The notes beneath the pieces were generated by a model. It did no database searches and was not told the DNA's origin. It saw only the letters and a list, made by a program, of their open reading frames with translations. From Octopus vulgaris (Eukaryota): a stretch of 64,000 bases of DNA. This document shows, piece after piece, positions 34,921 through 37,944 of the stretch (position 1 is the stretch's first letter; every line of letters starts with the position of its first letter). The stretch lies in contig OX597827.1 of assembly GCA_951406725.2 (NCBI GenBank), positions 13,578,001 to 13,642,000 on the forward strand. The letters are read 5' to 3'. A program made the translations under genes and the position numbers.

Positions 34921-35334
34921 TAACACCTCTGTCATCATTGTTTTAATATCCTCGTTTCCATGGTCACGTGGGAGAGGCTGAATTCATTCAGGCAGATTTT
35001 TCAACAGCTCGATGCCCTTCCTGTCACCAATCCTCTCCTCGTTTGTTTCCAAGTAAAGTAATGCTCCCACATGGCCAGACATGTTTTCATAGCAGATTGG
35101 AAATAAAAGGAAAGTGCTTGCGTGCCTCTCTGGCACTTGGTTTCAACTATCATACGATGTCAAGGATATATTTCATTAGATATAATATCCTTAATTATAT
35201 TCTACATTCGTTAATTTCATGCTTCTGTAACTATGTCATTATGTATGAAACTTACAACTTGCACACAGACACACACACACACACATAAATATATACACAG
35301 ACACACACACACACACACATAAATATATACACAG

Positions 35335-35620: not shown

Positions 35621-35847
35621 AGGGCTTCTTATAATTTTCATCTACTAAATCCACTCATAAGGCTTTGGTCAGTCCAGGGACATAAAAGAAGATAGTTAAA
35701 AGACAGGATATTCTCAGTAGGGATGCTTCTAATTGTAAGTCTGCATCTGAGGTATAATCAGATTCTAAAGTTAGTGGGAGCAAGCACATAAAAACAAAGG
35801 TGCTGTGATATACTAAACAATTTTTAACGCATTTCTCTTATAATACA

Positions 35848-36348
35848 ATGTAAAGTATACTAGCCATCTCACTATGGCTAACCACTAAGGGTGGGTGTTA
35901 CTGTAGCTTTTAGCCCCAGGAGATCATCGTCTCCAGCTGGCTTTAGGCACACTTTCTGTGCCCTTATGGTATTTGCAAAGGGAGGTCATCCCTCTCTTGT
36001 CAACCTGAGTGATACGCATGGACTGCAGTTTCTAGATATTTGCCTGTCTTCGGCATACGGCAATCACCGGTTTTCGAACGCCATACGCCGAAGACAGGCA
36101 AATACCTAGAAATTGCAGTCCGTGCGTATCACTTAGGTTTACGAGAGAGGGATGACTTCCCTTTGCAAAGGGAGGTCATACCATAAGGCCACAGAAAGTG
36201 TGCCCAAAGCCAGCTGGAGACGATGATCTCCTGGGGCTAAAAGCTACAGTAACACCCACCCTTAGTGGTTAGCCATAGTGAGATGGCTAGTATACTTTAC
36301 GTTGTCGAGCAGTTACTGTTTACATCTCGTTCAGATATTTATTATTGT
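35848..36348. mobile_element. Palindromic Penelope-like/retrozyme-type element (divergent inverted pair)
   Basis: Outer 95 bp are a perfect inverted repeat (35850-35944 / 36206-36300); right arm has an unpaired tail; 12-bp direct repeat tcttataataca at 35836-35847 and 36349-36360; hammerhead-like motif in each arm. Confidence 0.75.
36015..36059 (-). ncRNA. Variant minimal type I hammerhead-like motif (second copy on + at 36082-36126)
   Basis: cgtatg-CCGAAGA-caggcaaatatcta-GAAA-ctgcag-TC-catgcg: 6-bp stem I, palindromic stem III, GUC site; U4 is C and stem II is weak. Confidence 0.6.
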
Positions 36349-36446
36349 TCTTATAATACAGTTCTATATTTAAGAGATGAGGAATTATGAACATTATTTA
36401 CACTATTTACATTTCACGGATATTTGTCCTCGTCTTGTTTGTTGTT

Positions 36447-36492
36447 AACACAACGTTTCGGCTGATATACCCTCCAGCCTTCATCAGGTGTC
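36447..36492 (-). ncRNA. Minimal type I hammerhead ribozyme, intact core
   Basis: gacac-CTGATGA-a-ggctg-gagggtatat-cagcc-GAAA-cg-TT-gtgtt; stem III is the ACGU palindrome typical of dimer-acting Penelope hammerheads. Confidence 0.85.
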
Positions 36493-36675
36493 TTAGGGAA
36501 ATTTCGAACTTGGGATCTCATTCATAAGGTATTTTTTGATGTTATTATTGTTATTATTAAGGTCACTGCCTGGAATCGAACTAGGAATCTTGGGGTTTGT
36601 AGCCCACTATGCCATATGAGCTAATAATTTGGTACGAGTTCGATTCCAGGCAGTGACCTTAAGAATAATGATAAC

Positions 36676-36734
<59 letters not shown>

Positions 36735-36861
36735 TAATAATAATAATAATAATAATAGTAATAATAATAATAATAACAATAATAATAATAGTAATAATAA
36801 TAATAATAAAAACATCGAAAAATACCTTAAGAACGAGAACCCAGGATCAAAATTTCCCCAA

Positions 36862-36907
36862 GACACCTGATGAAAGCTGGAGAGTATATCAGCTGCAACA
36901 TTGCGTT
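36862..36907 (+). ncRNA. Inactivated partner hammerhead
   Basis: gacac-CTGATGA-a-agctg..cagct-GCAA-cattgcgtt; stem II covaries with the minus copy but GAAA is GCAA. Confidence 0.65.
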
Positions 36908-36939
36908 AGCAACAAACAAGATGAGGGCAAATATCCGTC

Positions 36940-37340
36940 CAGGAGTGGTTGTGTGGTAAGTAGCTTGCTAACCAACCACATGGTTCCGGGTTCAGTCCCA
37001 CTGCGTGGCATCTTGGGCAAGTGTCTTCTGCTATAGCCTCGGGCCGACCAAAGCCTTGTGAGTGGATTTGGTAGACGAAAACTGAAAGAAGCCCGTCGTA
37101 TATATGTGTATATATATATATATGCGTGGGTGTGTTTGTGTGAGTGTGTTTGTCCCCCTAGCATTGCTTGACAACCGATGCTGGTGTGTTTATGTCCCTG
37201 TTACTTAGCGGTCTGGCAAAAGAGACTGATAGAATAAGTACTGGGCTTAGAAAAGAATAAGTCCCGGGATCGAGTTGCTCGATTAAAGGCGGTGCTCCAG
37301 CATGGCCGCAGTCAAATGACTGAAACAAGTAAAAAAAAAA
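36940..37340 (+). mobile_element. Major CORE-type SINE inserted into the right arm of the hammerhead element
   Basis: Family consensus; host tail resumes at 37341. Confidence 0.92.
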
Positions 37341-37944
37341 TATATATAAATAATGTTCATTTCTCTTATATTACACAAAATATTTCATTAGATATAATAT
37401 CCTTAATTGTTTTCTACATTCGTTAATTTCATGCTTCTGTAACTATGTCATTATGTATGAAACTTACAACTATTGATATAAGTATGTTAGGAAAAAAGAT
37501 GAAATTCCACTGGATTGCCAAGTGCTGAGAGGTTATGATGTCAGGGTTTGTTTTGACTCTTTAGATATCGGTGGCCACCAGCACATTACAAGAGATTGAG
37601 CAAGCAGACAGTTCAAAAACACAGTAGGTCAACCAAGACTCCAGAAAGTTCTTTCAAGACCATGCAATTAACATTAAAAAAAAAACCAAAAAAAAAAAAA
37701 AACCAGAGGTTCAATTTTTATTGTGCAAGTGAACTTCGGAATTAAAACCAAAAATTGTTGGAAAGGTTTCAATTCTGAAAAACATGCTTGGGGTCACTCT
37801 CCTTGCTTCGCTCCCTCAATAGCTAACATTACTAGTTTTCCCACTTGAAACTGACCAGGAGATAAGTAACAAAAATGACCATCAAAATGAACTAATAATT
37901 TTGGTATGATTTTGTAATTTTTCTGACTGCACAGTTTGTTCTTG

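What the first reader, a model, noticed from the sequence alone, without database searches (positions are those of the whole stretch)
35848..36348. Giant hairpin hiding a back-to-back pair of variant hammerheads (CCGAAGA core)
Both arms contain stem I - CCGAAGA - stem II - GAAA - (c/t)tgcag - UC - stem I, pointing outward from the centre. Stem I differs between arms but stays paired, though CpG decay could explain that. The outer 95 bp are identical while the inner ~120 bp differ at about ten sites, and a nested palindrome lies at 36152-36179. The U4C core in both arms may be a family-level variant that standard descriptors miss.
Basis: partly seen in the sequence, partly recalled or inferred. 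Interest (0 to 1): 0.7.

Follow-up and report, generated by a model that had tools for sequence, protein, structure and literature searches.

The report
Retrozyme hairpin with variant hammerhead core
This hairpin is two back-to-back partial copies of a small non-coding repeat, likely a jumping element, whose predicted self-cutting RNA carries an unusual core letter in over a hundred genomic copies, and a probably younger branch of the same family carries a different, likely repaired core.

Summary
The hairpin (35848-36348, 12-bp target duplication) is real. It is one inverted insertion of a 354-nt non-coding repeat with Penelope-type ends and tandem arrays, i.e. retrozyme-like. The layout is ordinary for the family: 48 of 130 sampled insertions are inverted. 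The two hammerheads lie on opposite strands and are predicted to be sequestered by the hairpin, so they are not a working pair. The U4C core is a family trait: 104 of 177 exact anchor matches read CCGAnGA, 41 CUGAnGA, 4 CCAAnGA. Stems covary with a canonical-core sister family. New here: one lineage shows three successive cores: CUGAnGA, then CCGAAGA (both with a C-A mismatch closing stem II), then UUGACAA with a G-C pair (78 exact copies), nested in the U4C backbone and less diverged. Six of its 12 consensus changes hit nine core positions, which suggests selection to keep cleavage. Also, 32 of 48 inverted copies pair one tail-less end with one tailed end; none has two alike. U4C and U3-A8 are each known; family-wide U4C and this succession were not found in nine literature searches. 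Cleavage, expression and the mobilising partner are untested or unfound.

The parts
35836..35847 (+). Left copy of 12-bp target-site duplication
   Evidence: Sequence; TSD search; flank is an older host repeat
35848..36077 (-). Left arm: 5'-truncated monomer ending at the tail-less 3' end (site S1)
   Evidence: Alignment to a natural monomer, positions 62-294
36008..36070 (-). Complete type I hammerhead motif, core CCGAAGA at 36053-36047, C-A mismatch at base of stem II, loop CAAAUA, palindromic loop III; predicted cut 36021/36020
   Evidence: Motif scan; 6+5+3+2 pairs; covariation
36062..36079 (.). Central spacer: upstream sequence of the left arm and the head-to-head junction; same junction in L002
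36080..36348 (+). Right arm: 5'-truncated monomer ending at the tailed 3' end (site S2)
   Evidence: Monomer positions 78-336
36082..36133 (+). Damaged hammerhead motif, core CCGAAGA at 36088-36094; lacks the 5' strand of distal stem I, one stem I mismatch, G-U in stem III; predicted cut 36120/36121
36152..36179 (.). Nested palindrome made by a private 9-nt insertion (36169-36177), likely a template switch at a short family palindrome
   Evidence: Insertion absent from left arm and from L002; mechanism inferred
36306..36348 (+). About 45-nt 3' tail present on one arm only
36349..36360 (+). Right copy of 12-bp target-site duplication

Best explanation
The hairpin is a single inverted insertion of a 354-nt non-coding repeat, likely a retrozyme copied in trans by a Penelope-like reverse transcriptase, and its U4C hammerhead is a subfamily-wide, probably weakened but still cleaving stage in a lineage that later acquired a likely more active core. 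Shown: boundaries, family, tandem arrays, two fixed 3' ends, core counts, stem covariation, backbone order. Inferred: (1) tandem copies are transcribed, cut at the hammerheads as dimers through the palindromic loop III and closed into circles; (2) the Penelope protein nicks both strands of an AT-rich target about 12 bp apart and starts one cDNA at S1 and the other at S2; the two truncated cDNAs join head to head, which gives a hairpin with a tail on one arm; (3) at this locus the ribozymes are inert because each sense motif is made after, and pairs with, its antisense copy; (4) the master lineage went CUGAnGA -> CCGAAGA -> UUGACAA with G10.1-C11.1, under selection for cleavage.
For: Family: 3234 first-look candidates, 40 scored; 354-356-nt arrays of 2, 3 and 5 units; a monomer folds as a circle at z = -4.3 against 60 shuffles. 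Ends: of 126 3' ends, 64 at S1 and 52 at S2; 48 of 130 insertions inverted, 32 of 48 S1+S2, 0 S1+S1, 0 S2+S2, 16 with an unclassed end; 26 of 48 with a direct repeat, most often 12 bp. This matches the Penelope tail, inverted copies and two RT start sites (PMC11167929, PMC3846280, bioRxiv 2021.04.23.441226). Core: 104 CCGAnGA, 41 CUGAnGA, 4 CCAAnGA of 177; 78 UUGACAA/G-C; of the 100 listed of 189 wildcard matches, by hand count 46 CCG, 32 U3-A8, 15 CUG, 6 UCG, 1 CAG, none C3-A8. Structure: 96.8% of cells paired in 59 sequences, two-sided changes in distal stem I, stem II and both loop III palindrome pairs; slid controls 14-56%. The distal stem I U-A to C-G change occurs in a CUG clade and separately in a CCG clade. 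Order: sister shares ancestral backbone states with the CUG group, the U3-A8 group shares derived states with the CCG group; 6 of 12 consensus differences in 9 of 354 positions (P = 3e-8), one copy with new core but old C-A base, median private divergence 1.4% (42 copies) against 2.3% (55 copies), P = 0.004. A viroid U4C core keeps reduced activity (PMC3088659).
Against: No cleavage data. U4C 'considerably decreases' activity in vitro and here comes with a C-A mismatch at the most conserved stem II pair. 5' ends do not pile up at the predicted cut: 0 of 59 copies at position 119; this fits circles but equally uncut templates. Hammerhead cutting was dispensable for insertion by an anole Penelope protein in vitro (PMC11167929). 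The hammerhead fold is not the monomer's minimum-energy fold in any of six copies tested. No coding partner was found. Trees are weakly resolved: CCG needs 15-18 changes and U3-A8 5, with one origin not excluded. The six core changes could be one recombination patch from an unseen donor. Samples were drawn by exact anchors, which biases divergence estimates; covariation cells count related copies many times.
Confidence: 0.6

Rival explanations
1. Same element and same insertion mechanism, but the U4C/C-A hammerhead is dead. The subfamily spread from uncut read-through transcripts, the ribozyme being a passenger, and the U3-A8 core came later by recombination or drift.
For: Two departures from consensus in one core; no 5' ends at the cut; ribozyme mutants did not affect Penelope insertion in vitro; U3-A8 sits on two backbones, which points to recombination.
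Against: A two-sided stem I change was fixed inside the CCG clade; later changes concentrate in the core and all restore known active features; the C-A mismatch is also kept in the canonical-core sister family.
Confidence: 0.3
2. The back-to-back pair is itself a functional unit at this locus (two ribozymes that cut out or regulate a hairpin RNA, or a source of host small RNAs under selection).
For: Outer arms are more alike than expected from 10 other inverted pairs (P = 0.005 for 0 of 11 differences, 0.03 for at most 1 of 12, boundary chosen afterwards); a second locus shares the junction.
Against: Opposite strands; core unpaired probability about 0 in both transcripts; right motif truncated; inverted layout is common in the family; each arm carries private decay changes.
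Confidence: 0.04
3. A foldback DNA transposon (MITE) or microRNA-like hairpin with a chance hammerhead-like motif.
For: Long terminal inverted repeats and a target duplication; best Rfam hit is a microRNA model at 44.5 bits.
Against: That hit is far below its cut-off of 95; most copies are single or tandem, variably 5'-truncated; junctions differ among hairpins; duplication length varies; stems covary.
Confidence: 0.02

Closest known systems
Non-LTR retrozymes of animals (Cervera and de la Pena 2020, PMC7229834; Li et al. 2026, bioRxiv 2026.07.22.740005)
   Same: Non-coding monomer of about 350 nt (mussel repeats are 350-390 bp), one type I hammerhead per unit, monomers plus short tandem arrays, strongly self-paired circle prediction; axolotl HHR_Amex2 also has a mismatch (U-U) at the base of helix II and a 2-bp helix III.
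   Different: Core U4C or U3-A8 in most copies, C-A mismatch; Penelope-type inverted insertions with tail and ~12-bp duplications, which I did not see described for retrozymes in the passages read; circles and cleavage not shown here.
Penelope-like element pLTR insertions (PMC3846280, PMC11167929, bioRxiv 2021.04.23.441226) and their hammerheads (PMC4209133)
   Same: Inverted 5'-truncated copy, tail on one end, AT-rich and (TA)n targets, two 3' end sites, palindromic helix III; U3-A8 cores are reported in Schistosoma Penelope elements.
   Different: No ORF and no linked coding element found; full stem I with internal loop and short stem II rather than the minimal long-stem-II motif; tail about 45 nt against 30-40.
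U4C hammerhead variant of a viroid (Ambros and Flores 1998, seen only as cited in PMC3088659)
   Same: Same core substitution.
   Different: There a viroid variant; here the most frequent core class of a genomic repeat family, combined with a C-A mismatch.

Membership tests
Type I hammerhead ribozyme | Three stems around the core, stem I open | tested here: met
   pairs and two-sided changes across subfamilies
Type I hammerhead ribozyme | Consensus core C3 U4 G5 A6 N7 G8 A9, G12 A13 A14, A15.1-U16.1, H17 | tested here: not met
   U4 is C in both arms; other positions match. Known tolerated variant
Type I hammerhead ribozyme | Paired 10.1-11.1 (usually G-C) | tested here: not met
   C-A in this subfamily and the sister family; G-C in the U3-A8 subfamily
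Type I hammerhead ribozyme | Rfam hammerhead model match | tested here: not met
   No hit at E <= 10 in the window region or E <= 5 in three loci, two with canonical cores
Type I hammerhead ribozyme | Site-specific self-cleavage | not testable with these tools
   Needs in vitro assay; genomic 5' ends show no pile-up at the cut
Non-LTR retrozyme | 170-400-nt non-coding monomer with one hammerhead, in tandem repeats | tested here: met
   354-nt unit; 2-, 3- and 5-unit arrays; no coding frame tied to the unit
Non-LTR retrozyme | Highly self-paired monomer | tested here: met
   One monomer, circular fold z = -4.3
Non-LTR retrozyme | Accumulates as circular RNA | not testable with these tools
   No run on record as RNA; contigs only
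Penelope-like element (autonomous) | ORF with RT and GIY-YIG endonuclease | tested here: not met
   None in the unit or attached to copies
Penelope-mobilised insertion | Inverted 5'-truncated copy, tail on one end, short variable TSD in AT-rich DNA | tested here: met
Penelope-mobilised insertion | Shared ends with an identified coding partner | tested here: inconclusive
   Two coding families checked, no similarity; search far from exhaustive

The most novel reading that the evidence does not exclude
This repeat family is a dated fossil series of a ribozyme active site under selection: a retrozyme lineage amplified for a long period with a doubly non-consensus hammerhead (U4C plus C-A) that still cleaves, then was replaced by a descendant that rewired six core positions (U3-A8, U4, G10.1-C11.1) and spread that core onto a second backbone by recombination; and its hairpins record an obligatory division of labour in Penelope integration, one target strand primed at each of the two RT start sites.
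Probability: 0.35. Interest if true: 0.7.

Novelty: new variant of a known kind. Interest (0 to 1): 0.45.

Why it matters
Whether hammerhead cleavage is needed for the spread of Penelope elements and retrozymes is open: it was dispensable in the one in vitro system (PMC11167929). Here three natural cores on an almost constant backbone, each with dozens to hundreds of copies and an order of age, allow a direct comparison of cleavage rate with genomic success. It also shows that consensus descriptors can miss most copies of a retrozyme family, and the strict tail/no-tail pairing of inverted copies constrains models of Penelope second-strand synthesis. The hairpin at this locus is, by itself, an ordinary dead copy.

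Tried and rejected
Rfam: only sub-threshold microRNA and repeat hits. Coding partner: a GIY-YIG-like frame upstream of copy L021 is not the parent; the copy is inserted in that family's 3' region and 24 other members lack it; a second high-copy Penelope-like ORF family is tied to the neighbouring element, with no similarity to ours in 30 of 30 loci; Pfam named neither fragment. CpG decay as the source of all CUG copies: rejected for the family (41 CUG against 4 CCA; CUG clusters in basal clades), but enough for CUG copies in the most derived CCG clade (6 of 50, P = 0.06; 11 of 75 in the wider group, P = 0.003). Segmental duplication as the link to L002: flanks are unrelated. Expression: no RNA holder listed; contigs of runs guessed to be RNA hold family sequence but cannot show strand, ends or level, and the dip in depth over the ribozyme is not interpretable. 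5' ends at the cut site: none. A-to-I editing as the source of lineage changes: the consensus differences listed show no A>G/T>C excess on inspection; not tested formally. Earlier scan notes by sequence and by words: nothing. The primary paper on the viroid U4C variant and a review of core mutants were not held.

Full report
Observation. The window lies at G000:C14:13578001-13642000 in a 2.8-Gb animal genome; an octopus is my recollection from a flanking SINE and the wording of earlier scan notes, not a tested result. The arms align over 35845-36061 and 36080-36305 with 12 substitutions and one 9-nt insertion; 95 bp are identical; both carry CCGAAGA...GAAA...TC pointing outward. A 12-bp direct repeat at 35836-35847 and 36349-36360 bounds the insert. 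The left motif is complete (6 proximal and 5 distal stem I pairs, 3 in stem II, 2 in stem III); the right has 5 and 2 in stem I because it starts just upstream of the stem. The left arm's stem I differences are two CpG transitions that happen to hit one pair; the right arm's breaks a pair.

The family. A genome search gave 3234 first-look candidates, 40 scored, most about 92% identical. Copies are single, tandem or inverted pieces of a 354-nt unit; arrays of two, three and five units exist. No coding frame belongs to the unit. One natural monomer folds as a circle at -105 kcal/mol, z = -4.3 against 60 shuffles. This fits the non-LTR retrozymes of PMC7229834 (passages and section 14 read) and bioRxiv 2026.07.22.740005 (part 1 of 5 and passages).

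Why a hairpin. 3' ends fall at two sites about 45 nt apart: 64 at S1, 52 at S2, 10 elsewhere, of 126. Among 130 insertions in the loci fetched up to, 48 are inverted with 3' ends outward; 32 have one S1 and one S2 end, none has two alike, 16 have an end outside both classes; 26 have a flanking direct repeat, most often 12 bp. The sample is enriched for ribozyme-bearing copies. Inverted truncated copies with a tail on one end are typical of Penelope-like elements (PMC3846280 and bioRxiv 2021.04.23.441226, passages), and an anole Penelope protein nicks both strands of AT-rich DNA and starts reverse transcription at two sites that delimit the tail (PMC11167929, parts 1-2 of 4). I infer that each strand was primed at a different site and the two cDNAs joined head to head. 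PMC3846280 proposes self-priming on an antisense template instead; my data do not exclude it. In either transcript of the whole hairpin the sense core has an unpaired probability near zero, so this locus is very likely inert as a ribozyme.

The core. A 28-nt anchor that leaves positions 3-7 free has 177 exact matches and 0 controls: 104 CCGAnGA, 41 CUGAnGA, 4 CCAAnGA, 28 other or truncated. Contigs with C at this position are also present in runs labelled organisms A, C and D (canonical share 21-40% of laid depth; reference-biased). A sister family about 77% identical has CUGACGA, the same C-A mismatch, different stem II pairs and a different palindrome in loop III. In 59 aligned motifs (59 of 62 candidates' worth: four out-of-register or truncated rows dropped, the window's left motif added) 96.8% of cells pair and two-sided changes occur in distal stem I, stem II and both palindrome pairs; slid controls pair 14-56%. 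These are few independent events, and the anchor fixed stems II and III in about two thirds of rows. With the core masked, a tree of 93 copies puts CUG basal and CCG derived, and the distal U-A to C-G change on two separate supported branches, one inside the CCG group.

A third core. An anchor downstream of the ribozyme (180 matches) revealed copies reading UUGACAA with G10.1-C11.1; 78 exact matches. Of the 100 listed of 189 wildcard matches I counted by hand 46 CCG, 32 U3-A8, 15 CUG, 6 UCG and 1 CAG; C3 never goes with A8. At backbone sites 48, 49, 53, 138, 144 and 229 the sister shares the state of the CUG group while the U3-A8 group shares the derived state of the CCG group (43 of 43 at site 138). 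Six of 12 consensus differences from the CCG group fall in nine core and junction positions (P = 3e-8); copy L202 has the new core, the old C-A base and two backbone changes; median private divergence is 1.4% against 2.3% (P = 0.004); the new core occurs on two backbones. The core-masked tree of 84 copies (a random subset) does not resolve one origin but allows it. U4 may have returned first by CpG decay, so the path need not be six steps from CCG.

Against function. U4C lowers activity considerably in vitro though a viroid stays infectious with it (PMC3088659, passages and section 8; the primary paper was not held). Penelope hammerheads cleave poorly in vitro (PMC4209133, parts 1-2 of 4), and ribozyme mutants did not affect insertion in vitro. 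None of 59 copies begins at the predicted cut. The hammerhead fold is 5-16 kcal/mol above the minimum-energy fold in the six copies tested. Hence 0.6 for weak activity under selection and 0.3 for a dead passenger.

Arm gradient and nested palindrome. Ten other inverted pairs differ by 5.1% inside and 3.8% outside, so 0 of 11 differences in the outer 95 bp is unusual (P = 0.005; 0.03 counting the edge change; post hoc). L002, 615 kb away with unrelated flanks, has the same junction and three changes of the truncated arm, but its tail is on the other arm; both window arms share a rare change found in one L002 arm only. A crossover with conversion between the arms would explain both the flip and the identity; how the junction reached two loci is unexplained. 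The palindrome at 36152-36179 arises from a private 9-nt insertion, likely a template switch.

Comparison and novelty. It works like a retrozyme inserted by Penelope machinery; membership rests on layout, since circles, cleavage and partner are not shown, and two consensus features of the hammerhead core are not met. U4C (viroid) and U3-A8 (including Schistosoma Penelope elements) are each in print. Searches for family-level U4C, cephalopod retrozymes or core succession found none; the library lacks most subscription journals, a 2017 paper on dimeric Penelope-linked hammerhead variants that I recall was not seen, and no supplements were read, where invertebrate families are listed. PMC3376415 (passages) gave nothing relevant. 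Verdict: new variant of a known kind, interest 0.45; the locus itself is ordinary, the family history is the testable part.

Noticed in passing
window 36361-36938: A second inverted Penelope-type insertion abuts the finding: arms 36416-36559 and 36795-36938 with a canonical minimal hammerhead (CUGAUGA, long stem II) intact on the minus strand at 36487, tail on one side. It is the terminal repeat of a high-copy ORF-bearing family (found in 27 of 30 loci of that ORF) and unrelated in sequence to the 354-nt element.
   Followed up: partly
window 35760-35847 and 37356-37471; L158: An older host repeat is split at one AT-rich site by the finding, the neighbouring element and a SINE; another copy of the host repeat (L158) has an independent insertion of the same 354-nt family 10 nt from the same site, suggesting a hot spot.
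   Followed up: partly
L002:1501-1994 (G000:C14:12998269-12998762): Second hairpin with the same central junction as the window but with the tail on the opposite arm and different flanks.
   Followed up: partly
L217 (G000:C4, about 13620900-13622400): Five-unit tandem array of the U3-A8 subfamily with near-identical units; a good template for cleavage tests.
   Followed up: no
L177, minus strand from about 2378: A fourth, distant relative of the element with core UUGACGA, a G-C closed stem II and a shorter palindromic stem III; one copy seen.
   Followed up: no
L021:480-1460 and L033-L056: A separate high-copy Penelope-like family with a C-terminal GIY-YIG-like frame preceded by an asparagine/serine-rich stretch (motif reading recalled, no Pfam hit); some loci hold a minimal hammerhead nearby.
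   Followed up: partly
window 35168-35259 and 37380-37471: 92-nt direct repeat at 98% identity, part of the same host repeat family.
   Followed up: no
window 36939-37340: High-copy SINE-like element, with at least ten more near-complete copies in the window by similarity to a copy in L002.
   Followed up: no
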